A stretch of 48,441 nucleotides of DNA from Octopus sinensis (lineage: Eukaryota), in assembly GCF_006345805.1 (NCBI RefSeq), contig NW_021834397.1, forward strand, positions 1 to 48,441, in the 5' to 3' direction. The number at the start of each line of letters is the position of its first letter. The first letter of the stretch is position 1. A program made the position numbers and the translations under genes. The notes below the pieces were generated by a model. It saw only the letters and a program-made list of their open reading frames with translations, was not told where the DNA came from and searched no databases. Shown in pieces: positions 1,960 to 48,441 of this stretch.

Positions 1960-2945
1960 GGATCTGATGATAAAACTAATAGAGGAATTAGTAGATTACT
2001 CAGATGTGATAATGTTCTATAAAAGAATACAGTCTAATCTTTAATTGTCAACTTGGCACTAAGAGGCATTGTCAAGGTGCAAAGGAGCAAGCACTCATTA
2101 ACTGTTGTGTGAACAGGTCACATGAGTATAAATTATTTTCTTCATGGGTAGATGTTAAAAAAGCCTTTGACTCAATCAATCACGAATTCCTTGCAGTGAT
2201 TCTGAAAAACTCCGGGCTTCCTGAATGGGTAACAAAGTTTATAATGTCAATAATTCCAAATTGGAAGGTCTCCCTCAAATTAGGAAAGCAGCATCTGGGA
2301 ATTGTTAACATAGAACGTGGAATACTCAAGTAGATTCCCTGTCTCCTCGGTTGTTTATTTTGACTTTCCTTGTACAATTATTATATCGGCCTTCTGGATT
2401 TGGAACCGTCCGCTTTTGATGAAATTGACAAATTTGTCAGGAAGCTGTTAATGGATCTAAATATTCATATGAAATATTCAAAAAGAGAACCTAATATGGC
2501 TTATTGAAGTGGGTGTGACTTCAATAGATAACCTAAAGAGTGTGGAAGTAGAAAAATTGCACAAATACGACATTTTAGCTAGTGAATTACAACTGATTCA
2601 CAAGGCTAGGTGAAGATTGTGCCAATTGTTATTACGTGGGATAGAATCGTCTCAACGTTCTACCGCAAGTACATGGAGCTCCTTGGGATTGAAGAAAGTG
2701 TTTGTTCCTACATCCAGACTGTAACGCTGAAGGCCACTCTGGAGAGCATGTTTGTCGAGTACAAACATGGCTTCACTGAAATCCTGGACTCTGCAAATTC
2801 CGTAAATAGGGACTGGCGGAAATATAATGAAGGTCAGCAAGTCCCTTAAGAGACCCAGAGACTGCAGGAGGAGATTGAGGATAATGGCGAGGACGATCAG
2901 AGTGGAGTCATGGGGAACTCGGAAAACAAAAATTGGAGAGTATTA
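1960..2945 (+). mobile_element. Internally deleted RLE-type non-LTR retrotransposon, related to the element at 34200-37790
   Basis: Fragments CQGAKEQALIN, SSWVDVKKAFDSINHEFL, RGIL..DSLSP, IEVGVTS.DNLKSVEVEKLHKYDIL and KIVPIVITWD are collinear with the longer copy, with large deletions and stops. Confidence 0.85.
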
Positions 2946-3002
2946 TTAATTAGCTAAATTAGATGAATTAAAAGAGGGAATAAAATAGAGTGTAGTGTGG
3001 TG

Positions 3003-5759
3003 ATGGATCTGTCAATGTGTTGGAGCAATCAGTGTTGGGAAGTAGAGTGTTGTGTAAAGTTGTAGACCCGTGTGAAGTGAAGAAGTGCCTGGAAGTGCTG
3101 GAGGAGGCGTGTGAAAGGAATTTAGTGGGTGGTGTGAGTAAAGTGTAGACGGAAGTGATGTTGGAGCTGTCGGAAGTAATAAAGGGGGAGAGCAAGGAGG
3201 TAGTATGTAGACAGGCGTGCATCCAATTGAAGAATATAATATTTGGAGTGTGAACAGTGAGAAGCGTGTGTGGCTGGCGCAACGGTGGAGAGAGCAGGAA
3301 GAGTGGGCGCGTGAGAGGATAAAATGGAATGTGAGGAGTGAGTAATGAGGCAGATTGTGTGTGGACTGGGAAAGGAGAGGTGGAGACCGAGCAGTGTGGC
3401 GATGGTGTATTCTGCAGTGGCGTGTGTGGAGATGGCGTTTGGAGAGTGGGAGGAGGGAGTGGTGTTATTGTGCAACAACGTGATGGAGGGGCGTGTGACG
3501 GAGGCCAGTTTGGAGGCTCTGGGGTTCATAGCGAATGACCTGGTGTGGTGTGTGGTAATAGTGCAGGACTGTTCGTACATGGCCCAACACACGGACTTGT
3601 TGGTGAGTGCGATTGTGCGTGGAATGGAGGCGAGTGTGTGAGTGGTGTTTGTCCTATTTAGTGGATATATCCAATTGGCCGCACTGAGGGCTCTCCACTC
3701 GACAGTCCCCCTCCTGCAGGCCAAGGTCCCCCTCCTCTGGTCTACGATAGAATGAACGGGACGTGATAATGAAGGTGGTCTGCCAGTCGTGCCACTCGTC
3801 GGACGTGGGCGTGGCCGACATGTCCCTCAAGTGCCTGGATGTCATGGCCACACACTTTTACGAGTACTTGGAGGACTACATGGCCGACTTGATCTTCCCG
3901 GTAGTGAGGACATGACATGTACAGATCACGCTCAATGCCATCCAAAGTGAGTCACACGTCCTCCAGGGAATCGAGTTCTGGTCGAGCATTTGTGAGGTGG
4001 AGTTGTCCTCCCCCCACTCGTCCAAGTTGTACGCACAGGCAGCCATGCCCCACATTATATACCCAATACTCACACACCTCCCCAAACAACACGAGGATGA
4101 CGACACCGACGGCTGCTGGATCCCCCCCAAAGCAGCCTCCGTCTGTCTCACACTCCTCAGCGAATGCTGCCACGACCACATCCTCCCCCACGTCCTCCAC
4201 TTTGCAGAACAGTTCATCGGACATGCCCATTGGAATATGCGGGAGGCCGCCGTGATGGCATTCGGTCGTGTTTGTGTGTCACTCCAGGCTGTGTCGTCCG
4301 CCACAACATTGCCCCACACGCCCTCCGCGTCCTCCCCCTCCTCCTCACACTCGCCACTACCGACCCCAGTGTGGCAGTCCGCGACACAGTCGTCTGGGTA
4401 CTCGGCCAGTTGTGCGAGCACGTCCCCCCACTCCCCTTCCACGACATTGCCCACACACTCCGCACGTGTCTCACACACGAACCACGAGTGGCCACCAATG
4501 CCTGCTACGTTACCATTCTTATTCACTTGTAGGCACTCTCCACTCTTGCTTCCACTCTGGCCCCTCACTCACTCTCCCCCACTTTCACCATCTGTTCGAC
4601 GCACTCTTTCGCCTCTGCACTACACACTACGACTCGGTGTACTACGAGACTCTGATCTGTCTGATCACACACAACATACTCCCCGACATGTCTCCTGTCC
4701 TCTCACATTACTTCCCACTCATCGTCCAATTCCTACAACATACACTCCAATTTGACAATCAATTCCACGTACAGTCACTCCTCTGTGCACTCATCAGAGT
4801 ACTCCCCCCCATCACGACAGTCCATTGTCCTCCTCCTCCCCCTCTCACAACTCACACACGCAGACACTGCCTTCCACATCCTCTCCACCTTCCTCTCCTC
4901 CCCCGCCCACCACCATGTCCACGAGGACGCCCTTTACGCCCTCTCTCCCTTTCTCGACGATACTAACACTCACACCATTCTCCCCCTCTTGCTTAATCTC
5001 CTCACACCCCACAACGACCAACAGGTTCTCCACTCTCCCCATCACAGGTCTTGTTCGCCTGTCTGGCACTCCTCGCCGACATCCACTCCCCTCAACACAT
5101 CCTTCCCTACGCACACCCCCTCATGTCCTCTCTCTGGAATATCCTCCTCGTAACTCTCCTCACTATTCCACAGAGTCCACACACCTCCGACAAACTCAAG
5201 GCTGTCATTTTGGCCGGCTTCGGGGACTTGGCCTTGTCACTTGGCCACCACTTTGCCCCATTCGCCACCCTCGTCCTCGACACACTCCAATCCGCTGCCT
5301 CCGCCTCGTTCGACCAAGTCCTCCCTTCCCTCATTCCAGTCCACACAACAAGGCCTCGCTCTCCTCTCACAGACACACGAAGCATGCATTCAGGCATACA
5401 CCGGCATTGTCCAGGGACTCGCGGGTGCCTTGTTCTTTAACCACCAGCATCACACTCTTCTCTCCTCAATCCACACCTCCCCTTCTTGTTCGACTTTCTC
5501 ACTTCCGTCGCTGCCAACTCTTCCATTTACGACATTTCCACCCTCGAAAATTTGTGCGGACTATTGGGGTGTCCACACCTTCTCACTCCTAGGGACATGT
5601 TGGGCATGTTTTCCACACAAACTCGTTCCTCTTCGCCTCGACTCCGTCAACCAACTGTTGACCAACGACCGGCTCACATGCACCCCCAACGGCAAGAAGA
5701 CTGTCAATTGGGTTAAGAAGCAGTTAAAAAAGGCAAATAAGGCGTATGACTGTGTATGA
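3003..5759 (+). CDS. KPNB1: Importin subunit beta-1 (karyopherin beta 1), about 14-15 introns of 22-28 nt, with a few probable assembly frameshifts
   Basis: Spliced translation gives ACIQLKN, EASLEALGFI, NERDVIMKVVCQ, LQGIEFWSSICEVE, KQHEDDDTDGCWIPPKAASVCL, WNMREAAVMAFG and DPSVAVRDTVVWVLGQLCE. Example introns: gtagagtgttgtgtaaagttgtag and gtaactctcctcactattccacag. Confidence 0.95.
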
Positions 5760-5822
5760 TTGTTCTTTCTTTTGTTTGCTTGTTATTCTGTGGCCACCAA
5801 CGTAGGGACTATTCGAGTAGGC

Positions 5823-6330
5823 ATGTCGGTAGTTTACATTACCCACATTTCTCCTCTCCTTATTCCCTTCGTTGGCCCATCTGTATAGTTGTTAATATAG
5901 GTGGTGATGTGTGCAGGACATAAATGGGACGAGCAGGGCGAGTAGTACAATATATGACTGATATTGTCGGCCTACATTCACGACAGTGAGTTGGTACGTC
6001 TACATGCACTACCGAGTGGGGCAAAGGTACGAGTCCTCTTTACACGTAGAGACCGCAAGTTGTTGAACTACGACAGTGTGGTGGCCATCGAGCCACTACT
6101 CAAAAATAAGTGCCACGTTTATTAATATCCCAGCTATGTCAGGCAACTAAAGAAGAACATGGAGGCCGATATCATGAAGGACGTCGAGGGGTGGGCCAAT
6201 ATTAGCCAGTCTACCACAACGAGGGCGACCACTGGATTGACCCTTCCATCGACGAGTACTACGCATGCTCCACTCAGGTATGAGGAACCGATTTAAGTAC
6301 AAAAACACGTCCTTCACTCCCCTCTTCTAA
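5823..6330 (+). CDS. NDUFA13: NADH dehydrogenase 1 alpha subcomplex subunit 13 (GRIM-19)-like; frame disrupted (low-quality sequence or pseudogene)
   Basis: Fragments VAIEPLL, YVRQLKKNMEADIMKDVEGW and YHNEGDHWIDPSIDEYYA resemble the GRIM-19 C-terminal half, and short GT-AG introns are present. The 5' exon structure is uncertain. Confidence 0.65.
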
Positions 6331-7619
6331 TACTCCACTTACTCTCTCTTTACTAATCTCATTCAACCTACTTCTTTTAGATCCATCAAGGGTGCCTGTC
6401 AGTCACTTAGTTTGTTCATGACAGTCCTGTTCACACGTCCCTTCACATTAACGCTTAGAAAATGCGAATGCTGTCAAATGTTTTGCGAAGCTGTGTATAG
6501 TTGCTTTTTCTATTCAAGGAACTCTTGGTGACCCTCTTACTACGACGTCAACACCTGATAATTCCCAATTGTCGACAGGCATATACAACAAATTCACCCG
6601 AGAACATTAAACTCTGTGGAACATACTAAATGACCATGGTTTATTTTACAGGTCCTCTCTTTGACTTTGCCGACACTCAGTAGACTTGGTCCCCTGGGGT
6701 TGTCATGTTGAGTAATATGACGAATGGATGTGTTTGAGGGAGTGTGTGGACAATATGTTCCCCCAATGGAGTACAACAAAGTAGGGTCAATTAATTCCCT
6801 TGGTTAAGCGCAACAGATCGCAGTTTTCTTTGGTTAGGTGATCACTATCTCACTATGTAAGGTAGGTTAGTGACCTTTATTTGTGGCTTTTCCAAGCCAT
6901 TTTTTACTAGTGTAAACGTATTTCACTACATTAAGCAAAGAATTTAGAGCTTAATTTAGTCAGCAATGCCAATTTGGCAGAGACAGCGACAGATAATCAA
7001 CTTTATTGCACACTAAAAAGAAAGGAAGGCGACTCAGTGCCTCTTTGTAGTCCTCCAACTGACACTTTCAGTTGTGGACTCTGAAATAGCCAGACTATGA
7101 CTCAGTGATGATAGACTGCGCGGTAAGGAAACCCTCGCCAAACGGAAATAGCCTGACTAGATCACGCTTTATTGCATACGACGTCCAGCACAAAACTGAA
7201 AATTCTAGTTTACGACAAATATGAGCTCCTTTTCTGAGCTCCATTGACAATATTGATATATTTTCTGTCAATGAACGACTGATGATTATTGAAAAATGCA
7301 GTATCTAATGATTTGTTGGAGGTTCTGGTAGATACTACAATAAATAGTTAAGTTTGATCGGAAACACAAATGAGTAATTATTGAAGATGGAAACATAACA
7401 ATGTTGGAAACACGCATGAGTAATTATTAAAGAAAGTTATAGGCTGGAAGATGTATTTGTGCAATGTGCTTTCCACCGAATTATTATTGAATAACCTCAC
7501 AAATTTTCTTATTTACAGAAATCTTATGAATAATATTGAGTTAGCCAATTTTTGTTCAATTTATAAATGATTTATTTACGGATTTTATGGAAGTATCCAG
7601 TCGAAACTCAAAATGCTTC

Positions 7620-8305
7620 AGAGGTTGTCCAGGATGAGTTTGGCAATGAAAATGGAGTGTTTGTTGTGGAGTACTCCTCTGGTGTCACCACGGACTGTTC
7701 CGCAATTTCTATTGTCTTGTGAGGCATCTCCTTCACTTCGCAGTGAAAAACTGCCAAGTTGAAGAAAGGCCCTAGTCGGTTGAGGTTGTCGGGCTGCAGA
7801 GAGAACAGAGACAATTAATGTGCTTACGAATAGGCCTCTAAGATTTGTATCACCTCCTCTACACATGTAAAATAAGAGACTTTCTTAATGGGTCGACTAT
7901 TTCCGTCTTGTAGCAGAGATGGTCGTCGACTGTTTTGTAGTATTACACCCTAATCTCGGGTGAGTGAGATTGGTGGGGCAGTCCAACACTTTCTCACAAT
8001 ACTGCAAACTTCTTCCCTCTCCTTCTCAATCATTCCATTTATCAGACATCTCGTCAATCGATTTCAGCAGTCGGTGCGACGTAGGTGGCATCCAATCCGT
8101 GTTTTGTAGGTAATTGAAACCAGGCATTTCTCCTCTTGCTCAATTCTCTACAATTCCTTTGTTAATAATCTTGACTGCTTCCGAAACAGAAACCACTGCG
8201 ACACCGCTTGCCTAAAATTTTTTCTTATATGCTATCCGTGGATTAGCACTGCTTGGATGGACGTAAATAATACACAATCTCCCTCTGCTTTAATAAATGT
8301 GGCAT
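7620..8305 (-). pseudogene. Highly divergent 14-3-3-like pseudogene, copy A
   Basis: Minus-strand fragments follow 14-3-3 order: EEKCLVSITYKTRIG (~EERNLLSVAYKNVVG), IEKEREEVC, PEIRV*YYKTV.DH.CYKTEI (~[20 protein letters not shown]), PDNLNRLGPFFNLAVFHCEV (~HPIRLGLALNFSVFYYEI) and SIFIAKLILDNL (~STLIMQLLRDNL). A stop and a frameshift are shared with copy B. Confidence 0.7.
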
Positions 8306-8798
8306 TCCAGTAAAAATATATGATTTAAACGACAATCATGAAAAAAATAGTGTTCTATCTTTTTGTGAATAGGGACGGAGTAGGTTTAAAAGTATTACAA
8401 AGTGTTCTATCTCCTATATCGAAAGATTATTTGTTCAAGGCCCGACGAGAACATACATTCTGGCACTTGTAATGAAAAAGACACTAGAAAGCATAGGAAT
8501 GGGAATTAATATGCCTAATAAAGAAGTCATTACGGCAGTTGTTTGCAATGACAAACTAATAATGCGAAAACCCCAGATGAAACAAATTGACAAATTATAA
8601 ATGACTCTGAGCATGAAAGTAAATGTGGAAAGAATGAGTTATGGAGTTCCCTCAAGATGAGAAAAATTTCCAAAAACTAGGATCAATAATTACTTAATTT
8701 CTTATTATTTTTGGTTTTGGATTTAGTTAGTAAAGTTTTTAATTTATTTGTTGTCTAACCAATGAGTTATTCGCAATAAAATATTAGCTTTAATTAGA

Positions 8799-9585
8799 AT
8801 GCTTTCACTTGTCCTACTTTTTGTTCACGTAGTGGTCCAAAGAGACTGTGATTTAACAGAAGGGTTTTTGAAAAATTGCTTATTTGAATTAGAGATTTGG
8901 AATACTGTGAATTCAATGGAGAAAATGCTGCAGGACATAACACAAGAATTTTCATTTATAGCAACGTTGTATTTCCAAATGGAGAAATATTCGCGAATTT
9001 AACAAACTTGGAGGATTTGTAATTAACATTTTATTAACACTAGTTACTGTAATGGAAACTCGCTAAAGAGAATACTAAACAACTCATTTGACGGGTTGAA
9101 TCACCTAGACTATATGTACATTCAAATATTTTGAATCACTAGATCACTGTATTCCTGTAGTGACCTTCGTTACGTGAACGTAGATGCATTTGCACGTCTA
9201 GTCGCATTATCATCTCTGTACAAATCTTATTCTAACATTAAAGTGACATGCCATCAAATACCATTTTCCAGAGGCCAAAAATCAGTCGTCCCCTCTACAT
9301 GGGGTATTTTAACTTACTGACTTTGTAGTATTTGACGGCCAGAAAATGTGCATATTCACAAATGGGTCCCAACCCATAATGTATACTTATATATTCAAAT
9401 ATAAGGATTACGACAGTGACAGATGAGCTAGATATCAAATTAACTGATAAAAGTGTAGAAATAGATCCAGACGCAACACTAATCAGTGAGGAAGCCTATG
9501 GTGTGTTATTTTACTCACAATAGATTGCAACCTCTGCCGATATCCCGGATCAAGCAATCTTCTATGCTGGAAGGATTGCTTTTGA
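8799..9585 (+). CDS. Secreted leucine-rich-repeat protein, copy A (7 introns; 2-nt deficit near 9330 relative to copy B)
   Basis: Introns at 8864-8892, 9019-9043, 9116-9142, 9218-9243, 9304-9328, 9381-9405 and 9501-9523. Product has a hydrophobic N-terminus MLSLVLLFVHVVV, LRRs IFANLTNLEDFYCNGNSLKRILNNSFDGLNHLDYISLYSCSDLRYVNVDAFARL, and a Cys-rich tail CNLCRYPGSSNLLCWKDCF*. Confidence 0.85.
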
Positions 9586-9653
9586 CCTACATTTCGGATG
9601 TTACTAATTGACTAACCTAATTATTTGCTTTAATATTTCCTTGTTCCTCTTTT

Positions 9654-9780
9654 GCGACACCACTTGCCAAAAATTCTTTTTTAGATGCTATTCATGGATT
9701 AGCACAGCTTGGATGGATGTGAAATAAAACACAATCTTCCCATGCTTAATAAGTGTGGCATTCCTGTAAAAATGTAATTT
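9654..9780 (-). repeat. Diverged copy of the 14-3-3-like 5' end (matches 8198-8320; also at 39639-39800)
   Basis: gcgacaccacttgccaaaaatt...aagtgtggcattcctgtaaaaat matches gcgacaccgcttgcctaaaatt...aaatgtggcattccagtaaaaat. Confidence 0.8.
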
Positions 9781-9784
9781 AATG

Positions 9785-15516: not shown

Positions 15517-15597
15517 TACCGACAGTGGGATTCGAACCCACGAGGACATTGTCCAATGCATCTAAGTGCACCGCCTTAACCGCTCGGCCATATCGGT
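15517..15597 (-). tRNA. tRNA-Leu, probably UAA, with a 6-nt anticodon loop as assembled
   Basis: ACCGATA-TGGCCGAGCGGTTAAGGCG-GTGCA-CTTAGA-TGCAT-TGGACAATGTCC-TC-GTGGGTTCGAATCCCAC-TGTCGGT-A followed by TTTT. The long variable arm is typical of Leu-UAA. Confidence 0.9.
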
Positions 15598-15639
15598 GTT
15601 TTTATAGTTTTATTACTTTTAAACTAATACATATTACGT

Positions 15640-19180: not shown

Positions 19181-19848
19181 TGCCATGCGCACAATATTTT
19201 ATAAGCGTGATTGTGTTTATTCTCAGCCACTGACTGAACAGAGTAGATTTTTAAACTCATTGATTTCTTAATTACATTCTCCCTGCATGTACACATCTGC
19301 CTTGGTGAGTAGTCATTATTATTTGTAGATGATCAATGAACAGTTGGTGTATATGTAGCCATCATCTTGGTCATCCATCATAACTTTGGGTACTTTCACT
19401 GAGTGGATTCATTACAAATGCAAAGATTTGGAGTGACAAGAAATCACCCTGAGTATGTTTCTTTCCATTTTGATTTTCCAATCACGTTCTGGTTGGGGAT
19501 TGGCTTAATTTCCAATTTGCGACAAGGTCGGAGTGAGGGAGGCCGAGTTTGCAAGAAAGTCGTGATCAACCGAATGGAACGCTTTATCACATCAATCCAG
19601 ATAAAAAACAAATTATTTCCGCTTTATTTGTGAATGGACTGATTAATTATTGCTCGTTCGACACCCTGGCACATTATCGGGTGATTATTGGCAAACACAT
19701 AACGACACTCATGACTCGATTCAGGAAGGAAACATGACTTTGTTGTTTTGGATGATTAGGAGGAATAAAGTATAATTAAATGTAAAAAATAGAATAGAGT
19801 AGAAAAGTAAAAAATAAATAGTCGATTAGTTTTAGTGGTGTGGATAAG

Positions 19849-20674
19849 ATGGGCGACGAGAAAAGGTAGTAGATGAATGATAGAACTAGTAAACTTAATT
19901 AATTAGAAAATTATTTGTTGGTGGGTTAGCCTCAGAGACAAATAATGGTAATGGGTGTTAGAAATAGAAGAATCGATGAAGGCGTACTTTGGTCGGTTCG
20001 GTGAAGTGGAGGAGTGCATAGTGATGACGAACGTGGAGACAGGGCAGTCGCGTGGATTTGGATTTGTGACATTCGAGTCTGCTTTGTCAGTGCAGAAAGT
20101 GATGGGTACATTGACGCACGTGGTGGATGGGAGGCAAGTGGACCCGAAGATGTGCAATCCGCGAGGGAAAGTAATAAGTTGGTGGAGTAGTGAAGGGTGG
20201 AGGAGATGGGTCGGACGGGAAGATCTTCATAGGGGGACTGCCTGCGAACTGCACAGAGGAGACGATAAAGGCCTTTTTTTCGTACTACGGAAATGTGAGT
20301 GGTTGAATGACATGTGAGGTGACGGACACTATTTTGATGATGGACCAGAACAGAGAACGCCACCGAGGGTTCGGATTCGTCACGTTCGATTCACAAGAGC
20401 CCGTCAACCGTCTGTGCATGGAGAGATACGTCGTCATTAGTGGCAAGAGAGTTGGCCCATCTTGTCAACGTAGGTCGAGTGCAAACTGGCTCAGCCACTC
20501 ACTGGTCGTCGCACCACCCCTCGCTGGCCACGCCCATATCACATGCCTCTCTACCACTTTGGAGGGCTCACTGACTGGACTATGCAGGACTACTGGGACC
20601 AACAGTACCACTACGCACAACAGCAGTGGGCTGCACAACAAATGGGCTACCCTCCTCCCGACCAACCTAACTAG
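19849..20674 (+). CDS. DAZAP1: Two-RRM RNA-binding protein, DAZAP1/Hrb27C-like
   Basis: Spliced MGDEKRKLFVGGL, RGFGFVTF, VDPKMCNPR, KIFIGGLP and HRGFGFVTF, with a Q/Y/W-rich tail ending at TAG 20672-20674. Confidence 0.85.
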
Positions 20675-20753
20675 TCCATTCTTTATTTGGCTTCTTGTTT
20701 GTTTTATTGTGGCCACCCTGTTCTAGTTGTCATGATAACCATCCTACTTTACA

Positions 20754-21406
20754 ATGTTCACTAATACTTTCCAAAGCGGCATGTTGTCCATTTTGTACAG
20801 CATTGGCAGTAAGCCACTCCAAATATGGGACAAACAGGCACATCTCCTCTATCACCACCACAGGTCAAGAACGGACACATCAAGAGAATCACCGACAACG
20901 ACATCCAGTCACTCGTCCTCGAGATTGCCGGCACTAATGTCAGGTCCGCTCATTCCCCCCACTCCTTAGCACCACCTACATCACCTCACCACTATGGACG
21001 TCACTCTCGGCATCAAACTCCCCTTTCTTGTCATGATCATCAAAAACCTCAAAAAGTACTTCACCTTCGAAGTCCAAGTCCTCGACGACAAAAACGTCAA
21101 ACGACGATTCCGTGCCAGCAACTACCAAAGCACCACCCGAGTTAAGCCCTTCATCTGCACCATGCCCATGCGACTCGACGACGGGTGGAACCAAATACAG
21201 TTCAACCTGTCGGACTTCACCAGACGTGCCTACGGGACTAATTACATCGAGACTTTGAGGGTCCAGGTCACTCCCTCTCCCCATTTTAGATCCATGCAAA
21301 CTGCCGCATTCGACGAGTCTTTTTCTCCGAGAGGCTCTACTCCGAGGACGAACTCCCCGCAGAGTTCAAGTTGTATCTCCCCGTCCAGAACAAGGCTCGT
21401 TCTTAA
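20754..21406 (+). CDS. CFAP20: Cilia- and flagella-associated protein 20
   Basis: [28 protein letters not shown]|[16 protein letters not shown]...[25 protein letters not shown]...[31 protein letters not shown]. Three introns of 23-26 nt, the first GC-AG. One small indel near 20990. Confidence 0.97.
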
Positions 21407-21589
21407 CACACTAATTCACTATTAACGCTAATATGTTCGGGTTATGATTGCTCATATCCTTTCCTTCAGACAAGTCCTGTTACATTAACTGAACTGCCAT
21501 TATTCTATCCAGCATATTCGGGAGATCAATCAGTCCAAGATTTTGAATTTGACTGATTTTGTATCAAAAGTTCAAATGATAAATGGTAG

Positions 21590-37790: not shown

Positions 37791-37894
37791 TTGGTTTCGT
37801 AAATAAACGTCTTAATTAAATTTATATTGATATTAATTTTTTGACAAAACCTCAGTTTTTGGAACACTTAGTGTTCCAATTCAAGGTCGGACTG

Positions 37895-38260
37895 TATTAC
37901 ACCCTAATCTCGGGTGAGTGAGATTGGTGGGGCAGTCCAACACTTGCTCACAGTACTGCAAACTTCTTCCCTCTCCTTCTCAATCATTCTATATTATCAG
38001 ACATCTCGTCAATCGATTTCAGCAGTCGGTGCGACGTAGGTGGCATCCAATCCGTGTTTTGTAGGTAATTGAAACCAGGCATTTCTCCTCTTGCTCAATT
38101 CTCTACAATTCCTTTGTTAATCATCTTGACTGCTTCCGAAACAGAAACCACTGCGACACCGCTTGCCTAAAATTTTTTCTTATATGCTATCCGTGGATTA
38201 GCACTGCATGGATGGACGTAAATAATACACAATCTCTCTCTGCTTTAATAAATGTGGCAT
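37895..38260 (-). pseudogene. 14-3-3-like pseudogene copy B, 5' part
   Basis: Near-identical to 7941-8305. Confidence 0.7.
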
Positions 38261-38766
38261 TCCAGTAAAAATATATGATTTAAACGACAGTAATGAAAAA
38301 AATAGTGTTCTATCTTTTTGTGAATAGGGACGGAGTAGGTTTAAAAGTATTACAAAGTGTTCAATCTCCTATATCGAAAGATTATTTATTCAAGGCCCGA
38401 CAAGAACATACATTCTGGCATTTGTAATGAAAAAGACACTAGAAAGCATCGTTCTGGAGCATAGGAATGGGAATTAATATGCCTAATAAAGAAGTCATTA
38501 CGGCAGTTGTTTGCAATGACAAACTAATAATGCGAAAACCCCAGATGAAACAAATTGACAAGTTATAAATGACTCTGAGCATGAAAGTAAATGTGGAAAT
38601 AATGAGTTATGGAGTCCCCTCAAGATGAGAAAAATTTCCAAAAACTAGGATCAATAATTACTTAATTTCTTATTATTTTCGGTTTTGGATTTAGTTAATA
38701 AAGTTTTTAATTTATTTGTTGTCTAACCAATGAGTTATTCGCAATAAAATATTAGCCTTAATTAGA

Positions 38767-39570
38767 ATGCTTTCACTTGTCCTACTTTTGGTTGACTTAG
38801 TGGTCCAAAGAGACTGTGATTTAACACAACAGTTTTTGAAAAATTTCTTATTTGAATCAGAGTTTTGCAAAACTGTGAATTCAATGGAGCAAATGCTGCA
38901 GAACATAACACAATAATTGCAATTTCTAGCAACGTTCTATTTCCAAATGGAGAAATATTCTCGAATTTAACGTACTTGGAGCAATTGTAATCAACATTTT
39001 ATTAACACTAGTCACTGTCGTGGAGACTCGCTAAAGAGAATACTAAACAACTCATTTGACGGGTTGATTCACCTACGCCATATGTACATTCAAATATTTT
39101 GAATCATTAGAGAACTGCAATCCTGTAGTGACCTTCGTTACGTGAACGTAGATGCCTTTGCAAGTCTAGTCGGATCATTAAGCCTGTACAAATCTTATTC
39201 TAACATTAAAGTGACATGCCATTAAATACCATTTTCCTGAGGCCAAAAATCAGTCTTCCCCTCTACATGAGGTATTTTAACTTACTGACTTTGTAGTATT
39301 ATTGACGGCCAGAAAATGTGCATATTCACAAATGGGTCCCAACCCATAATGTATACTTATATATTCAAATATAAGGATTACAACAGTGACAAATCAGCTA
39401 GATATCAAATTAACTGATAAAAGTGTAGAAATGGATCCATTTGCAACAACAGACGCAACACTAATAATCACTGAGGAAGCCTATGGTGTGTTAGTTTACT
39501 CACAATAGATTGCAACCTCTGCCGATATCCCGCATCAAGCAATCTTCTATGCTGGAAGGATTGCTTTTGA
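38767..39570 (+). CDS. Secreted leucine-rich-repeat protein, copy B (intact, 207 aa after removing 7 introns)
   Basis: Same intron positions as copy A. The 624 spliced nt read open: MLSLVLLLVDLVV...IFSNLTYLEQFHCRGDSLKRILNNSFDGLIHLRHIELQSCSDLRYVNVDAFASL...CNLCRYPASSNLLCWKDCF*. Confidence 0.88.
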
Positions 39571-40382
39571 CCTACATTTCGGATGTTACTAATTGACTAA
39601 CCTAATTATTTGCTTTAATATTTCCTTGTTCCTCTTTTGCGACACCACTTGCCAAAAATTCTTTTTTAGATGCTATTAATGGATTAGCACAGCTTAGATA
39701 GATGTGAAATAAAACACAATCTTCCCCTGCTTAATAAGTCTGGCATTCCTGTAAAAATGTAATTTACACAACAATCATGCAAACAATTTAGTGTTCATAT
39801 CCCTCATGAATAAACTAGTCGATAATGACGTGACAGAAGAAGAATTTGTCAACTTGGACTTTTAACTACCCACTGAAAATCTCAATGAATAGGAATCATT
39901 CCCCGTTGGCCAATACAAACAGTCTCAGCTTCTGAAGATAATGACGATGACTCAGATAAGCAAACAGGCCAGAAAATATAGAGAAATTACTACGCACAAA
40001 TGTTCAAAAAATGCTAAATCTACCACTTTGTTTGCATTCAAGACCCTGCATTACTCGATCCCGTCGACAGACTGATCTATCCAAAAATAAAACGATTGCT
40101 AAATCGAGGCTAAAAACGAGCCAATCCTTATTGACAAATTTTTATTAATATCACTTTGTCGTTATAAGTAAATTTGATGTGCAATATACCGGTCTCCTCT
40201 CTATAGGAATCGGTTTAGAGTGATTTGATTGTATATAATAAAATTATTTGTCACCCTTCGTCCCCTTTGTCGTATATTTATTTTGAAGGAATAATAATTA
40301 AGTAATAATGAAATGACATAAAAATAAAGGAATTGTTGTTTGGTTGTGTGGTATGCCCAATAAGTGATCTCTGTTTAGTAGG

Positions 40383-40789: not shown

Positions 40790-41460
40790 CTCCACAAACA
40801 CATAAAAGACAATTCAACCTAAACCCAGTCCTCAATGTGGCCGGCGAAATAATTCCTGTCATAAAAAACCCGAAAATCCTTGGAGTCGTATTCGATCAAT
40901 GCCTATCTTTCACGCAACACGTGGAGCTCATTTTCACCAAAGCCAAACGAAAACTGAATGCACTACGTGCCTTATCTGGGCAAACTTAAGGCCAAGCCAA
41001 AGAATGCCTCACTTTGGTTTACAAACAATTTGTCAGAACATCTATGAACTATGCTAGTCCAGCATGGTCATGGAACTTGTCTCATTCAAACCTCCAAAAA
41101 CTCTAAAGAATCCAAAACTCAGGGCTACGCACAATAACTGGCTGCCTTGCATCCACTCCCATCGATCATCTTCATTGGGAGTCCTGTATTCTTCCGGTCG
41201 ATGACCATTTGACGATGAGAGGACTCCAATTCCTACAGGAAATACAAGACTCTTCTGATCCAAGTCACAAAATCTCTATTCCAGAAAACAAAAGACACAT
41301 CATTTTTACTCTGGCCGATCAATGTAGATGTCTATCAAAAATACTCTCAACCAACAATGGGAAAACTGCGAATAAACTAATCCATGACTACATCTCCACT
41401 CGTGCTATCAGGATGCTCAAAAACAACAAACTTCTTAACAGCCATCCATTGGCACACTCA
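40790..41460 (+). mobile_element. APE-type LINE 3' fragment
   Basis: KILGVVFDQCLSF, LVYKQFVRTSMNYASPAWS and ITGCL..TPIDHLH. Confidence 0.8.
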
Positions 41461-41641
41461 CAATTTACTTGTTTGCGGGGTTCCATTATTCTTGATGTGG
41501 TAGACACAGCCTTCCACTGGTTGAGAAAGAAGTGGTATTCAAAATTGGTCCCAAATAGTAAAACGGTTATTGATACAAAAACGAATAGAAATATTATAGG
41601 AATAAAAATGTGAACATTAAGAACTGCGGTAAAGTGATATA

Positions 41642-44600
41642 ATGGAGACAGTCAACCACATTTCGACCTGCCTGAAACAACTATTGACAACCAGTTCCCA
41701 GTTGTACGAGAGGGGGTGTTACTCGGCGGATAGAATACGACACAGCCTGACACACCATTTGACAGCACTGCAGGAGGTGATGTCATCAAGAGAGGAAGGG
41801 AAGGTGACACAACTGCTGAGGCGGATGGACTACCTGCGTCCCAAGAACACATCATTCTGCCTCCTTGTTGACTACAAAGTGAAGTCGTGCCTTATTGGTA
41901 GAGTCAACTCAAGGAGGGAGATCGAGTGCAGTTTATGGAGATGGATGGACTCGACGACTACTTGGTTGCCTCCCTAATGTCATTGCAGGTGGAGACTGCG
42001 AAGGGGGACAGAATCTCCATTCCGTGGCTGTTTGTCCAAGACGAGAGTCTAAGCGAGTGAGTGCTTAAGGCAACATGCTTAATCGATCGAGACTGATTTG
42101 TTTATAATTATTCGCAGAATCAAACGAGAACTGATGGAGTTTTACGAAAAGATAACCTTCAGGAAGAACAGCAATGAGGGCACTCATAACATGACCACTG
42201 GATATGTCCAAATCACCTCCACCAACACACAGTACGCCTCCAAGTCATACATCTGGACAAAGTGAGGGTCCTCCTTATTCCAGTCCACATTCAGTCCTGT
42301 CCATTTCCGAGAGGCCCGAAAGGATGTTCCGAGAGAGATTGGTCGTGGAGGTGAGACTGGATGCACTCCCTGCCCCAATCGACCTCACGTGTGCTATAGA
42401 CAGAGGACATTTGGCCATTCTTGGACAAGACCTGTTTGCGGTCAAACAACCAAATGACTCGTATTCCCTCACCACCACCACCGAATTGGTTTCCCAGAGG
42501 AGACTCCGCTTGGTCGTCCTCCCACCAAACACACAACCCCCACAACCAAACTTTGGTCTTGTCTTCTCAACCCTTTCGGAGAATTGTTCCCAAATGTCCT
42601 GGGAGACACTGAATCCCCAAATCACTCCACTGGAAGGACACAGTCCCCCGCCCTTGGAGGACTGCGATGACTATCAAGTGAGAGGGGACTTGTTTGTATT
42701 TGTGGACCATCGACAACACGGACGGGTTTGCTCAGTGCAGGAAGCTTTCGGGGAAGAAAGACTGTCATTGGAGCACGTCCACTCTCTTGTGAAGACATTC
42801 TTCGACAACAGCCTGTCGCCCCCCGTCTACCACGCACATTGGAAGTGCCTCTGCTCACTCCCACTGCCTGCCTGTCAGAATGACTTTGTGCTGAGGGATG
42901 TGTGTTCCCCCCACCTCCTCATCACACAATGCCTCACTCTCGCATTGACCAGACCATTGTGGGACTATCCTCTGTCCAGGTCAATCACGCTGAAGGAAGC
43001 ACTCCTCACGTTTCTGATAAACATGACCTGGTTTTCCTTCCGCTGTGGGATAAAGGAAACATTCGAGTCATTCTATAAAGTATACACCTGTCCCCGTGGG
43101 TGGTGGAACAAACGAACTCTCCGATTGTTCTTTGATTTGGTTACTCCCACGTTCTTCCCACCCTCCCCCCTCTGTCCCCACACAACATACTGTCTGAGGA
43201 ATCAACAAATGGGCACGTTGACTGCATTCGCCCAGGGACTCACCAACAAGTCTCCTCAACAAGTCATTCATGAACTCAGTCTGTCCCTCCCAACAAGACC
43301 TGCCTTTGCTAAGGGCAGTGTCGGGGAAATTACTAAATTTAATATATTCGGGCAGGACTTTGTACTCTCAGAGTCCCTCATTTCGCGGAATGTGGTCTCC
43401 TTTATGGTGAGACAGGAATGTGAATTGTTGTATGACTTCAATTCGGGGGTGGCATACTTTCTGGGCAGCCAACTGATCGTGCAGTATTTGACTGAGTTGT
43501 TAGTCAAGTTGGCCGACGAGTGGGGCATCCAATCATGGGACTGCAAAGTAATCATTTGAGTGATTGGACAAAGAGGGAGACCGAGTCACTCATTCGAGAC
43601 ATGGACATGTACCGGCGGGCAGTCATTACATATAGTCCTCACCCCCCTCCTTCCAATTTAATTCACACTCTCCAAAAGGTCGGCCAACTCATTCAAATTA
43701 GACATTGGACTACTTCCACGCTGGGAAGGAAGCCTTGGACTACACAGACTGGTCGTGCGAGGTGTTCAGAGGACTGGTTGAGGATTGTGAGGCACTCCTG
43801 TCGTCCATCGAGAAAGAGGCGGGCAACGTGTCTTCAGTCAAGGATTTGGAGAATAAAATGAAAAATGGAAAGCGAGAGTTCATTTTGAAAGTGGAGCAAG
43901 TTCAAAATAAATATCGGGTAAAGTATATATTATTAATTTAAAATTGTCTCTTTGGCAATAACCCATCCTTAGGACACAATCACGTCCAGTTGGCCCAACA
44001 ACAAAATCGCGGAAAACTGCATGAGTCACATTTATCTTCCCTCAACGACCAGTTCAGCCAAGTCGATTCTCCACCGCTTCGAAGAATTGGCGGATTGTTT
44101 AGAACAAATTACCCGCCGGGCAGACACACTATGTCGAGAAAAGGAAGGCGAGTTGGAACGGATAAAAAACAAGTTCATTCTCTTCCGGACTGATCTGTCT
44201 GCTCTGTCTTCGAGGATTGACAGCCAATCAGACGACGTGGTCACAGAAATCGCAGAAATAGGCAAACAAGTGAGGGAGGAGTGGCAAGTGGCAGAAAGAC
44301 TAAAAAATGAGATCGAGGACATGATTAAAGTAGTTTAAGAACTGCTGATTGTGACAGTCCGATCCTTCTCTCGGAGATTTGCTGAATAATGCGCTCGCCG
44401 TGTTGGCCAATGCAGTCGCCTTGAAGGGCGTGGTGGCAGACTTGTCGAGTCTGGCAGGAAAGCACTCAACCAAGTATTGACTGTGTTGGTGACTGTCCCA
44501 GACTGGAGCCACTCGAAAGAATTATCAAGGAAACTGCCGACTTGTTTCAGACTGGTTTAAACGAATCATTGGAAGAACAACTGAGACGACTGTCCTCTGC

Positions 44601-47600
44601 GCGGGACCGTGTGGATAAAGTGAGGATTGGGTGACCATTCAGGCTGTGGTGGATCTGTCGGACTGCATTGGATGTGGGGAGTTATTGGAGCGTTGGAAAG
44701 TCGTGCGAGAAAATGTGTTAGTGCGAGTAGTCAATAAAGTATGAAACAAGTACGACAAATAGGTCCAATCGGGCATGAGCAATCTGCTGGCGTGGATGGA
44801 CAAGACCGACTCCCAACTAGAACAGAACGAGGGGACTATGATGACTGTATATTCCACTCTGACCACGACAGACTATCGAGGCTGCAATGTCGGACAAAAT
44901 GAGGGAGGTGACACAACTCTTGAGAATATTCACAACCCTCGCATCCTTTCGAGTCACCGAGAACGGGGGATTACTTTTATTGAGAAATAAATTGGCCACC
45001 CGAAGCCTCGCTGTCCTCCAGTCCATGACTAAAAAGTATTAACATTGCACTAAATGTAGGTTTGGTGACTTTAGGGAGGCAGTGAATATTATCAATCGAA
45101 TTAATCCAGTCCTTCAGGAGTTGAGGGACACTGAGGGAGATGACATTCTACAAGTATTCCCCAATTTGAACTGCCCAGTCTCACTACATTCTGAGAAACA
45201 TTTCCCTCAGTCAGTTATATATCGCCCGAATTGGCAAACTGAGCACACACAGTGAATGCGCTCATGTTCTTCAACGACAACTCGACCACATCAGGCAGGC
45301 CAAAGACACAAGTCAATTCGACTGTTGTGGAGATGTACACGTTACTATTCAGAAAATACACGATTTGTGCAAAGAGGCAGTCGAGAGTGACATTCCAATC
45401 GACCCCGACCTGTTGAGACATGAACAGAATATAAACAATGTAAGTCCACGCCCACACTGTCACAGAACTTGCTGGCAGTCCTCACACAACTCACTCATTC
45501 AGACATTCTTAATTTGACTGACAAAGCACAACACAGGGCACGAATACTCGCCCACGTGTATAAAGAGACCGCCCACGTGTGGGACATTATTTCCGCATTT
45601 TTTGAATTTGTCAAGTCCAGTATTTGCACCTTCAATGAGCACATGACACAATCCGTGGAGAGTGTCCCCCAACAGGCAGTCCCCTCTAACATATGCACAG
45701 ATTATATTTTCCCAATTCGAGTCCCAAAGAAGGGGGATGGAGCAAGTGATGAGAGTTCTCAACTCGGTGGAGGAGTATTTGGGAGAGTCGGCATTGAGGA
45801 TTGTTCGGAGAGTGGAAATGAGGTATCAAGTAGCCCTCCAGGAATTCGAACGGAGTCACGCGACTTTGTCTCGACACTGTCAAGTGATTGAGTCGAGGAC
45901 TGAGGCAATGAGGGAAATGGAATCAGTTTTCATCATTCCCCTCATTTCTGCAGACTTTGGAAAGGAAAATGAGAGAATTGAAGTGTGCCTTGGCAAATGA
46001 GCAGTCCAAAGTGGACTACCAGGACTTGCTTGATGACTCGATCGCCATATCAGCCATGTTACTAAACTATGAACGACTACTGGACTCGGTGAGTCCTTTC
46101 CAATGCGACTCGCGGTTTGAAGAAATGGTCTTTTCGTGGGCGGACATTTGTCAAGAATTGAGCAAACTGAGAGTGATGAGTATTCCCGATTGTGTAGAGC
46201 AATGTGGAATACACTCGAGTACTCCTCAGTCGGGAATGTGTGTGGCAGTCTGACACTGATTTGGAACGTCTGTACAATGTGTATTACTCTCTCCAAGTTG
46301 AATATTATTCTGACCAGTAGGCCGAGTTGGAAGAACTGGCCCAACACAGAGCATTGCAAAGCACAGTAAGGGAGATTGATGCACGGTCCTCTCAGCTCTC
46401 AGTGTACTCCAACAGGGTGGAGTCCAATATTATGAGAGTATATTCTCCCATCAATGTCCTCAGATCAACCACGTGTTGTCCTATAGGAGACACTTGGAAT
46501 GGGTGGAGAACAGTCTTTGTGCGTGCATACACATTCAACCACTTTCGACGGATGAGGACACACTGAGGACTCAGATTGAAGGATTCGAGGTATGAGCAGG
46601 CCTAATGGTAGAGGGAATGTGAGAAATTGAACGAGGACGATTACCGGAGATGTGTGGCGGTAGCAAAAGAGGTGGTAAAGGATGGAGGGGATGGTGGTTT
46701 GGTGGATGAAATAGAGAGGGGATGGGGGAGGGCGATGGAATATTGTGAATACATTCGAGTAGTGAGTGTGGGTGAAGAATAGAATCGAGTGGAGTGGCAC
46801 AAGAGTGGAGTGAGGAGGATGGAGGAGAGATATTCCGAGGAGAGTGTTTGGAGGAGACGTGGTTGTGTGAAGTGGAGGAGTATCTGTTGTCGAACGGGAA
46901 TGTGTTTGGGGACATGAAGACAGTGGGAATGTTGTTAGAACAGCACAAAGTATGGGTGTGTGAGTAAAAGGGAGGAGATGGGACGGGAGTTGGCAAGTAG
47001 AGTGGGGAGTGAGTGGGGGCGAGTGGGTGAACTGATGGCCGAGAGGGGGAGGAACCTTGGGCGAGCAGTGGAATTGGTGTGAGTGGTGTGTAATGTGGAG
47101 GCAGAGGACATGGAGAAGGGAGTGGAATACGCCCGAAAGGTGATCAAAGTGGCAGAACAAGTGCTGAGAGTGCGTCCGTCCTGCGAGGACAAGAACCAAC
47201 TGCTGTCGGCCATTGACAAGCACGAAGTAAGAGGGGACAGTTCATTGCAGACTTTCCTGGAGTGTTTGGCGGAAGATGAGAAGAGAATAGACCGACTGAA
47301 GGAGACCATCGACACAATAATGAGTCGAGTCCACCCAAACGCAGTCCGCTTCGTCCGCTACGACTACACCATCAGTTGTGCCAGTTGGGAACAGGTCGTC
47401 CAACCACCACATTCCCAGATTGTCAAGAAGGCACAACTGAGAACTGAGCACTTGAATGGTCTCTTTCTCCGGGCCAAACAGGACGCCCTCCACGCTGACC
47501 AAACATTGCAGTGGTTGACCGACGCCAGACATTTCCTGGCTGACAAGATGAGATATCCGTTGCCCGAGGACATTACCATGCTCACTCAACTCATGCAAGA

Positions 47601-48441
47601 CCACCAAGTCCAGTCATTCTCTATTTCAGGAATTCGAGCACAGTCTGAGGGACAAATACGACCAACTATCCACTCCACAATTATCCCACCTGTGGAAGGC
47701 CCTCAACACCACCTCCGCCCAATACTCACAAACTCTCCAACACTCCATCGACCAGTACGGCAGAGTATTCTATTCCCTCACACCAGTTCGAACATGTCGA
47801 CTTTGCCCGCTGGCGAACCAACTACTTGTCCTGGATTAAGGCCAACAAACTCAGAATAACCGACTTTTTCCGCAAAAACCAACAGGAAGGCCGCATCACC
47901 AGGGAACGTTTTGTCACCGGACTCGTCAAGGCAGGTCACACCACTCCATCACTCACCAGGCCTCGACAGTCCACGTCCTCAACTCAATGCCGTCTTCTCC
48001 CTCTTCGCTGGGCCACACTCGGACGACATGGACTACACTCTCCTAATCGACGCACTCACTCAGAAGGTCCCCACTCAGACAAACACCCCTCCCTCCCTAG
48101 AACGGGCTATCCAACACGAGTTGACCAACTGCACGTGTCACAGACCACTCAGAGTTAATTATATTTCCGATGGACGATATCAAGTATTCTTCCCCACGAC
48201 CTGCTAGATTGGGTCGTCCATCAGGTATGTCCACATCACACACACTGGAGTCTTTGTCCGAGTCGGCGGGGGGTGGCAATCCCTCTCTCAATTCATCCGG
48301 GCGGTCGACCCCTGTCGTGCCACTCACACCACACGGCCTACGAGTAGTCCTCACTCCAGTTCTCCAAATGGCCTACCCACACTACTCCGCTATAAGGACA
48401 CGACCAGTGATGGACATTCCTTTCCTCAGTACTCTTCCCTG
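41642..48441 (+). CDS. Spectraplakin (MACF1/dystonin/short stop-like) with many short introns; runs to the window end, and the 5' extent is uncertain
   Basis: Spectrin-repeat-like helices (LLAWMDKTDSQL, TLQWLTDARHFL), EF-hand region DFARWRTNYLSWIKANKLRITDFFRK..EGRITRERFVTGL, and GAR/GAS2 domain CTCHRPLRVNYISDGRYQ|IG...VFVRVGGGWQSLSQFIRAVDPCR. Confidence 0.8.

What the first reader, a model, noticed from the sequence alone, without database searches (positions are those of the whole stretch)
3003..5759. G-rich to C-rich strand-skew reversal inside one gene, repeated across gene islands at kb scale
Seen: importin beta starts extremely G-rich (2990-3650) and ends extremely C-rich (4000-5700), and introns follow the local skew (gtgggtggtgtgagtaaagtgtag vs gtcctcccttccctcattccag). 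The same switch spans DAZAP1+CFAP20 (G 19760-20350, C 20400-21420) and recurs in the spectraplakin (G 41600-42100, C 42200-43300; G 46600-47300, C 47350-48441). All these genes are on the + strand, so a uniform transcription-coupled bias cannot explain the sign change. The pattern is identical on the reverse complement. Inference: fixed bidirectional replication or processing units of ~2-3 kb, like miniature N-shaped skew domains or nanochromosome-end skew. This may connect to the DNA elimination, amplification and small circles reported for dicyemids.
Basis: partly seen in the sequence, partly recalled or inferred. Interest (0 to 1): 0.78.

Follow-up and report, generated by a model that had tools for sequence, protein, structure and literature searches.

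The report
Mirror G/C flips inside parasite genes
In a few GC-rich genes of a tiny-intron animal, probably a dicyemid parasite, the DNA strand switches from almost no C to almost no G at points inside the gene, strongly enough to skew the protein's amino acids; this likely marks long-lived DNA break-and-repair (recombination) spots rather than genome-wide 2-3 kb replication or excision units.

Summary
The flip is real. In importin beta, 4-fold sites run G48:C2 and then G19:C183; introns run 36:0 and then 9:55. It recurs in the RRM/CFAP20 pair and three times inside the spectraplakin.

It is not a genome-wide 2-3 kb unit. Nine of 10 dynein heavy chains are flat. Of 144 control genes, 97 show the weak opposite polarity (C-rich 5', G-rich 3'), as described for fungi. 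Strong skew domains number 4 in this 48-kb window against 4 in about 1.5 Mb elsewhere. Five allelic copies share flanks, and contigs of one DNA run show flat depth and no circle joint.

The islands have top-ranking GC at silent sites, short introns and 0.5-2 kb arms. Their polarity matches resection around a double-strand break. Rare variants lose G rather than gain it (16 vs 3), which favours biased fixation over ongoing mutation.

Best reading (0.42, inferred): stable intragenic break sites with strand-asymmetric, GC-biased repair. Rivals are transcription-linked bias and replication origins. The scan noted this pattern before on another piece of this genome (e1-9572766); new here are its rarity, the opposite background polarity and the polymorphism test.

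The parts
3003..5759 (+). Importin beta-1 gene, 14 curated GT-AG introns of 22-25 nt, 809 codons plus stop
   Evidence: PDB importin beta E=4e-26; Pfam TPR_IMB1; open frame on the consensus of 5 copies; spliced pieces of runs X3/X4 have gaps of 23-25 letters over three introns
2867..3651 (.). G arm of island 1 (raw skew +0.62; 4-fold G48:C2). The first ~75 bp lie in the end of a repeat fragment
3652..3999 (.). Switch zone of island 1, mixed (4-fold G16:C17 over 3641-3999); by eye two sub-switches near 3680 and 3935
   Evidence: sequence
4000..5880 (.). C arm of island 1 (4-fold G19:C183), running past the stop codon
   Evidence: sequence
5885..6450 (+). Small downstream gene with a weak G-to-C unit of its own (NDUFA13-like by recalled resemblance, not confirmed by a call)
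19850..20674 (+).
   Evidence: Pfam RRM_1 in three exons; parse
19724..20343 (.). G arm of island 2 (raw +0.53); switch near 20344
20345..21420 (.). C arm of island 2; it crosses the ~80-bp intergenic gap and covers all of CFAP20
20755..21406 (+). CFAP20 gene (start read by eye), C-rich from its first codons (4-fold G4:C42 over 20825-21406)
   Evidence: Pfam CFA20_dom E=7e-43
41642..48441 (+). Spectraplakin-like gene, running off the contig end; parsed as one frame of about 2050 codons with 28 introns under a forced single-gene setting
   Evidence: Pfam GAS2 at the 3' end; parse; the end lies in C8899; RNA-like pieces skip introns at 42057-42117, ~44330 and ~48184
41642..43399 (.). Weak unit A, switch near 42050-42180
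44150..45799 (.).
46550..48441 (.). Strong unit C: G arm 46550-47304, sharp switch at about 47305 (+0.71 to -0.81 between adjacent 150-bp bins), C arm to the end of the gene

Best explanation
Each G-to-C switch likely marks a long-lived site where germ-line DNA is broken and repaired by recombination, and the repair is inferred to favour G on the strand left single-stranded, so that the + strand becomes G-rich to the left of the site and C-rich to the right over 0.5-2 kb. SHOWN: the mirror skew at neutral sites, high silent-site GC, short introns, shifted amino-acid composition, rarity in the genome sample, and chromosomal embedding. INFERRED: that the centres are break sites; that the bias acts mainly at fixation (strand-asymmetric GC-biased gene conversion in heteroduplex DNA, about 0.28) rather than as mutation in single-stranded DNA (about 0.14); and that the weaker, opposite-looking pattern of ordinary genes (C-rich 5', G-rich 3') is the same process with its centre at the promoter instead of inside the gene.
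For: (1) Polarity and scale match resection: single-stranded DNA lies left of a break on the forward strand and right of it on the reverse strand, 1-2 kb each side, with C>N and A>N changes (C>G, A>G) on that strand (PMC7615360 passages). (2) The strongest spectraplakin switch is sharp and saturated on both sides, and fades to about zero 750 bp to the left (46000-46549 G33:C27). (3) Raw GC peaks at or next to the three strong switches. Importin 4-fold GC is 0.72, above 206 of 208 genes (median 0.41). True skew amplitude rises with gene GC, from 0.04 to 0.29 over five classes; the top class of 12 blocks falls back to 0.14. (4) Independent two-fold sites: high-GC G blocks G/(G+A) 0.70, C/(C+T) 0.46; high-GC C blocks 0.41 and 0.75; low-GC flat blocks 0.27 and 0.33. 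This is a GC gain on both strands, much larger on one. (5) Singleton variants at neutral sites, read on the G-rich strand: X>G 3 vs G>X 16 (p=0.004); C>T and G>A per site are equal (3 of 181, 14 of 804); diversity is not raised (0.6-1.8% in the arms vs 2.5-3.6% in the flanks). (6) Island introns are shorter (mean 23.4, n=20, vs 26.2, n=2216), and intron length falls with GC across 144 genes (rho -0.55). (7) An apparently intact SPO11 with 21-31 nt introns lies on a tiny-intron contig. (8) Across short intergenic gaps the + strand also goes from G to C: divergent pairs 3 of 3 (+0.26/-0.58), tandem pairs 18 of 27.
Against: No break, crossover or conversion map exists here, so the centres are unproven. 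A/T does not flip: importin 4-fold A:T is 11:6 left and 57:31 right, whereas A>G changes predict a flip. The polymorphism excess is not significantly different from flat genes (3:16 vs 30:48, p=0.10; S>W 17:5 vs 84:56, p=0.16). It also rests on singletons in long-read contigs that may contain errors or be mosaics. Four-gamete incompatibility is no higher in the C arm (3 adjacent pairs among 7 informative sites) than in the flanks (2 among 8, 5 among 13). The importin C arm stays saturated 1.9 kb from the centre and ends near the gene end. In this window the G arm is always upstream and shorter than the C arm, which hints at transcription. The repeat fragment just left of importin shows no G gain (3 of 18 changes to G). 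Convergent pairs show little switch (7 of 12). Budding and fission yeast are exceptions to the fungal gene-end pattern (PMC3315797 passage), although budding yeast breaks at promoters (recalled); this weakens the unifying step. Some GC-rich dyneins have no skew; dispersed breaks would explain that, but this is untested. I did not find strand-asymmetric GC-biased conversion of this strength in print. No shared motif was seen at the nine centres inspected.
Confidence: 0.42

Rival explanations
1. Transcription-linked bias. In these genes an R-loop-prone or paused 5' region makes the sense strand G-rich, and convergent antisense transcription or a termination-phase regime makes the 3' part C-rich; resets inside the spectraplakin would be internal promoters.
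For: Most units begin near a start codon and end near a gene end. The G arm is upstream and shorter in every window unit. The ordinary polarity is strongest in housekeeping CCT/DEAD genes (5' -0.27, 3' +0.19, n=29) and absent in dyneins. Opposite skews at gene ends are known in fungi and ascribed to transcription phases (PMC3315797 abstract).
Against: It needs opposite signs in two classes of housekeeping gene in one genome. CFAP20 has no G-rich start. Three switches lie inside one reading frame. It does not explain the high GC or the loss of G among rare variants.
Confidence: 0.25
2. Miniature replication domains: efficient germ-line origins at the island edges with forks meeting at the G-to-C point, or an origin at the switch itself.
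For: The shape, an upward jump followed by a decline, resembles human N-domains (PMC5137433 passages). C-to-G jumps sit in AT-rich intergenic gaps. Bidirectional asymmetry around human CpG islands has been ascribed to origins (PMC2817419 abstract). Switches recur at about 2.5-kb spacing in two long genes.
Against: Nine of 10 dyneins are flat. There is no mirror C arm left of 46550 (G33:C27) or left of importin. No G4 motifs were found in 6 arms, and GGG is under-represented (0.59). It gives no reason for GC to peak at a terminus. Origins 1-3 kb apart would be far denser than known ones (recalled).
Confidence: 0.15
3. Selection for a DNA or RNA signal: fold-back of the G-rich half onto the C-rich half, or G-rich structural elements.
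For: The arms share more reverse-complement 8-mers than dinucleotide shuffles do (importin 127 vs 73; spectraplakin 63 vs 35). A fixation bias could also be selection.
Against: Arms from different loci share as many words (148 and 57), and 12-mers are at chance level. There are no G4 motifs. Selection would have to outweigh protein-level change across a conserved protein.
Confidence: 0.07
4. The islands are units that are excised, circularised or amplified during dicyemid development (nanochromosome-like).
For: Dicyemids are reported to have diminution and extrachromosomal circles (PMC6543705 passages). A circle joined from C end to G start would look like a small bidirectional replicon.
Against: Allelic copies keep the same flanks. 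In run X1, long single-copy contigs have depths of 147-199 over 2-22 kb and 97-126 over 40-48 kb. No go-back joint appears among 15 of 39 joints shown or among the 3 joints listed. Cuts would fall inside one essential reading frame. Somatic circles cannot leave an inherited skew.
Confidence: 0.03

Closest known systems
Strand-asymmetric mutation footprints at meiotic double-strand-break hotspots (human, Hinch et al. 2023, PMC7615360; passages read)
   Same: Mirror asymmetry about a point, 1-2 kb arms, C lost and G gained on the forward strand left of the centre.
   Different: There it is a small excess of rare mutations at short-lived PRDM9 hotspots. Here the composition is nearly saturated, lies in coding sequence, shows no A/T flip and no raised diversity; breaks are not mapped.
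GC-biased gene conversion overriding protein constraint (gerbil high-GC genes, PMC7403616; passages read; 'GC skew' there means GC-ward substitution)
   Same: Clusters of very GC-rich genes with changes at the amino-acid level, ascribed to recombination.
   Different: No strand asymmetry is described in the passages read; here G and C are gained on opposite sides of a point.
Opposite GC skews at 5' and 3' gene ends in unicellular fungi (McLean and Tirosh 2011, PMC3315797; abstract and passages)
   Same: Gene-scale sign change at 4-fold sites that alters amino-acid use. The ordinary genes of this genome show the same sign (C 5', G 3').
   Different: The islands have the reverse sign and far larger amplitude, and can cross or lie within genes.
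Human skew N-domains and bidirectional asymmetry at CpG islands (PMC5137433 passages; PMC2817419 abstract)
   Same: Upward jump then decline; symmetric under reverse complement; GC-rich centres with a gene-conversion signature in CpG islands.
   Different: Those extend over long ranges (up to 1 Mb) at low amplitude. These are 1-3 kb, lack a mirror arm outside the edges, and are absent from most long genes.
Dicyemid extrachromosomal circles and diminution (Noto 2003 as cited in PMC6543705; original not read)
   Same: Probably the same animal group; kb-scale size range.
   Different: The islands are chromosomal coding genes with stable flanks, and no junction was found.

Membership tests
Recombination (DSB) hotspot footprint | Mirror asymmetry with G-rich left arm and C-rich right arm | tested here: met
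   polarity from PMC7615360
Recombination (DSB) hotspot footprint | Arms of about 1-2 kb | tested here: met
   arms of 0.6-2.2 kb
Recombination (DSB) hotspot footprint | A>N as well as C>N asymmetry (A/T flip) | tested here: not met
   4-fold A:T 11:6 vs 57:31
Recombination (DSB) hotspot footprint | Raised GC with fixation bias (gBGC) | tested here: inconclusive
   GC4 0.72, above 206 of 208 genes; S>W 17:5 vs 84:56 in flat genes, p=0.16
Recombination (DSB) hotspot footprint | Locally raised recombination or diversity | tested here: inconclusive
   four-gamete counts like the flanks and diversity lower than in the flanks, from four long-read haplotypes only
Recombination (DSB) hotspot footprint | Mapped SPO11 breaks or DMC1 single-stranded DNA at the centre | not testable with these tools
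   SPO11 gene present; no break map
Replication skew N-domain | Bidirectional jump at the border (mirror C arm outside the G-arm start) | tested here: not met
   46000-46549 G33:C27; left of importin +0.1; met only between adjacent islands
Replication skew N-domain | Recurrent across the genome regardless of gene | tested here: not met
   9 of 10 dyneins flat; 1 of 16 long genes beats all permutations
Replication skew N-domain | Fork-polarity switch in OK-seq or nascent strands | not testable with these tools
   no such data
Fungal-type gene-end skew | C-rich 5' and G-rich 3' on the coding strand | tested here: not met
   the islands are reversed; the feature is met by control genes, 97 of 144
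Fungal-type gene-end skew | Anchored to transcript ends, with no internal resets | tested here: not met
   three internal switches in the spectraplakin; C arm crosses into CFAP20. Transcript ends themselves are not mapped
Excised circle or nanochromosome | End-to-start junction or copy-number step at the unit ends | tested here: not met
   (assembled contigs only; rare forms are dropped; 24 joints not shown)
Excised circle or nanochromosome | Unit moves independently of its flanks | tested here: not met
   collinear allelic copies
G4/OGRE origin element | G-quadruplex motifs in the G arm | tested here: not met
   0 motifs in 6 arms; GGG observed/expected 0.59
Dicyemida (organism) | Spliceosomal introns of about 22-30 nt in a repeat-rich genome of about 37% GC | tested here: met
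   median intron 26 nt; contig GC 35-41%; published values
Dicyemida (organism) | Sequence identity to named dicyemid genes | tested here: inconclusive
   two protein searches returned no named dicyemid hit

The most novel reading that the evidence does not exclude
Dicyemids keep fixed recombination hotspots inside essential genes, and their repair converts alleles with a strand-specific G preference. This 'strand-asymmetric gene-conversion drive' is strong enough to rewrite conserved proteins in opposite directions on the two sides of a break, so break sites, intragenic and promoter-located alike, could be read directly from base composition.
Probability: 0.25. Interest if true: 0.85.

Novelty: new variant of a known kind. 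Interest (0 to 1): 0.6.

Why it matters
Nearly complete strand asymmetry over 1-3 kb of nuclear coding DNA in an animal is unusual. I found no description of it for dicyemid nuclear genes or 81 (listings only). It shifts protein composition (importin N-terminal part E 13.9%, V 11.1%, H 0.6%; C-terminal part E 2.1%, V 5.4%, H 8.1%), which can bias phylogenies of a long-branch group. If the break-site reading holds, it gives a sequence-only map of recombination initiation in an animal where none is mapped, and a natural test of whether gene conversion can be strand-biased. If transcription is the cause, one genome would hold both signs of the unexplained gene-end skew.

Tried and rejected
Genome-wide 2-3 kb periodicity: rejected. 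A universal 5'-G/3'-C gene polarity: rejected, since control genes are opposite. Circles or coverage steps: none seen (contigs only). Locus-specific fold-back: the cross-locus control was equally high. G4 selection: no motifs. A motif at the centres: none seen at nine centres by eye; no dominant hexamer beyond an order-2 model (top z 4.3). Direction of change in a flanking repeat: no G gain among 18 changes; the copy is young, so the test is weak. Four-gamete test: uninformative. REV1-type C>G mutagenesis: the Y-family search found only a Pol kappa-like gene (label recalled) and a fragment on tiny-intron contigs; 16 candidates were scored, so absence is not shown. No RNA holder was listed for the stretch. 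Runs X3-X5 behave like spliced RNA but are too fragmentary to place transcript ends or test an internal promoter. Searches for orthologues in other dicyemids, to date the switch, gave nothing usable. No look-alike stretch was found among earlier windows of other genomes.

Full report
Setting. The window is a whole contig (G000:C10868) in a 2.7-Gb animal assembly. Its genes have 22-30 nt GT-AG introns and sit among repeats. Related contigs are 35-41% GC. This matches published dicyemid features: median intron 27 nt (PMC6543705 passages), and 36.7% GC with 49% repeats (PMC6736024 passages). The organism is therefore probably a dicyemid co-assembled with its host; no named sequence hit confirms this. 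Importin beta, RRM domains, CFAP20, HSBP1 and the GAS2 domain were confirmed. The names DAZAP1 and spectraplakin go beyond those hits.

Observation. Raw skew runs from +0.65 to -0.67 across importin beta, far outside 200 shuffles. The contig has indel errors, so I annotated a majority consensus of five allelic copies. I used 14 introns. Two of them are in-frame 24-mers: 3042-3065 was added by eye, and 3543-3566 came from the first parse. Two further in-frame candidates (4774-4797, 5150-5173) were left as exon. Four-fold sites are G48:C2 and then G19:C183, and intron interiors G36:C0 and then G9:C55. A/T does not flip (11:6 and 57:31). Amino acids follow the DNA: E 13.9% and H 0.6% in the G arm, E 2.1% and H 8.1% in the C arm. 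The RRM/CFAP20 island behaves alike, and its C arm crosses the short intergenic gap. In the spectraplakin there are three switches, near 42050, 44850 and 47305. The last is sharp, saturated on both sides, and fades to neutral about 750 bp to the left. Further G-to-C units follow the gene's end in the allelic contig C8899.

How general is it? I sampled about 1.8 Mb of tiny-intron contigs, picked through a repeat and through Pfam families, so the sample is not random. I annotated it with a self-trained gene finder. That finder scores extremely skewed genes poorly, so I also ran an annotation-free scan. Among 144 control genes, the 5' part is more C-leaning than the 3' part in 97 and the reverse in 47 (Wilcoxon p=7e-9). 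Strong C-to-G occurs in 21 genes and strong G-to-C in 2. The 5' C bias peaks 150-300 bp after the ATG and is gone by about 700 bp. In a second pass over 136 genes, 5 had a G-to-C step with z>4: four are allelic copies of this window's genes (importin twice), and one is a duplicated dynein 3' piece. Thirteen had a C-to-G step. Nine of 10 dynein heavy chains (some parsed only in part) show no internal structure beyond permutation. Of 16 genes over 6 kb, one dynein beat all 60 permutations and three genes were borderline at 1-3 of 60. Raw domains with |skew| of at least 0.5 number 4 in this window and 4 in 1.50 Mb elsewhere, after dropping two allelic importin copies (p=6e-5). Strong islands do occur on other contigs: one in C7755 and a small-GTPase gene in C9004. 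The islands are thus a clustered minority on a background of weak opposite polarity.

Are they physical units? The importin island has the same flanks in four other copies; one of them aligns only from 2682 leftward. In DNA run X1, which may be the source sample and so is not independent, long contigs have similar depth across the islands. No go-back joint is listed at island ends: 15 of 39 joints were shown and all 3. Contigs drop rare forms, so rare circles are not excluded.

What force? The islands are the GC extreme: importin 4-fold GC is 0.72, above 206 of 208 genes. Their introns are shorter, 23.4 vs 26.2 nt (14 importin and 6 spectraplakin introns; three doubtful G-arm introns were left out). 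At two-fold sites both G and C are above the AT-rich baseline, but one much more than the other, depending on the side. Singleton variants among 3-5 haplotypes at seven loci show ordinary AT-ward change on the G-rich strand: X>G 3, G>X 16 at neutral sites, with equal per-site C>T and G>A. Under mutation pressure at equilibrium these counts should match, so either the bias acts at fixation or it has weakened. The contrast with flat genes is not significant (p=0.10), and singletons may include errors. Diversity is not raised and four-gamete counts do not differ from the flanks. The arms share a vocabulary (GTG, TGT, AGT, GAG) across loci, without G4 motifs or locus-specific complementarity.

Mechanism. 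At a resected double-strand break, the forward strand is single-stranded to the left and the reverse strand to the right, over 1-2 kb. Human hotspots show C>N and A>N changes on that strand (PMC7615360 passages). This gives G left and C right, the observed sign and scale, and gene conversion would add the GC peak. The missing A/T flip, the flat diversity and the singleton pattern fit a conversion bias toward G on the exposed strand better than mutagenesis. That mismatch resolution near a break can be strand-dependent is shown for single-strand annealing (PMC9001825 abstract), though there the type of mismatch mattered little, which does not support a base preference. An apparently intact SPO11 is present. 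The same G-to-C step across divergent promoters (3 of 3 pairs) suggests that ordinary genes have their centre at the promoter, but that step is speculative: the same gene-end pattern in fungi is ascribed to transcription, and the model yeasts are exceptions. Transcription remains the main rival, because units tend to start and stop near gene ends and the upstream G arm is always the shorter one in this window. Replication domains fail the mirror-arm and generality tests. I put 0.42 on break-centred repair, 0.25 on transcription, 0.15 on replication, 0.07 on selection for structure and 0.03 on excision.

Literature seen. Passages: PMC6736024, PMC6543705, PMC7615360, PMC7403616, PMC5137433, PMC3315797 (also its abstract). 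Abstract only: PMC9001825, PMC2817419. Noto 2003 and Awata 2006 were not read. No supplements were read; those of the two dicyemid genome papers could bear on novelty. Searches that showed no description of this pattern in dicyemid nuclear genes: (listings only; the library lacks most subscription papers).

Verdict. It is a new, extreme variant of known mirror-skew footprints with an unproven cause. Interest 0.6.

Noticed in passing
window 5765-5810 and 20685-20725: The same 10-base word (TGTGGCCACC) in a similar T-rich context follows the stops of importin beta and of the RRM gene, each just before a close tandem gene. Other hits in 1.7 Mb lie antisense inside predicted genes, and it is not a general 3' element. 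It could be a shared processing signal or part of a short UTR intron.
   Followed up: partly
144 control genes on G000 contigs (L001-L139): Ordinary genes of this animal show the fungal-type polarity (C/A-rich 5', G/T-rich 3'), strongest in CCT and DEAD-box genes.
   Followed up: yes
control gene set: Neutral-site GC varies about threefold between genes (0.19-0.68) and correlates negatively with intron length (rho -0.55), like a gene-scale isochore or recombination gradient.
   Followed up: partly
window 42195-43559: A long, nearly intron-free stretch (454-codon open frame) inside the spectraplakin has no Pfam hit. Pieces of runs X4/X5 have loose ends at 42450-42590 that suggest a rearranged or paralogous copy.
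   Followed up: no
window 40801-41437: A LINE-like fragment between HSBP1 and the spectraplakin is absent from one X1 contig (joint 40800-41438): an insertion polymorphism.
   Followed up: no
window 7940-9781 and 37894-39766: A 1.9-kb segment is duplicated at 94% identity, with further copies in C12459 and C8899.
   Followed up: no
G000:C12459 28631-29230 and 112024-112623: Two copies of the importin region lie 83 kb apart on one contig: either a segmental duplication or two haplotypes joined by the assembly.
   Followed up: partly
L215 (G000:C8459) and L217 (G000:C12463): SPO11 with nine tiny introns; a nearly intron-free Y-family polymerase (Pol kappa-like, label recalled); no REV1-like hit on tiny-intron contigs in one search.
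   Followed up: partly
L062 (G000:C7755, about 320450-321700): An isolated GC-rich island with a sharp G-to-C switch near 321040 and the same vocabulary, in very AT-rich flanks; the gene is not identified.
   Followed up: partly
window 15527-15600: A tRNA-like sequence on the minus strand, seen by eye; not scanned.
   Followed up: no
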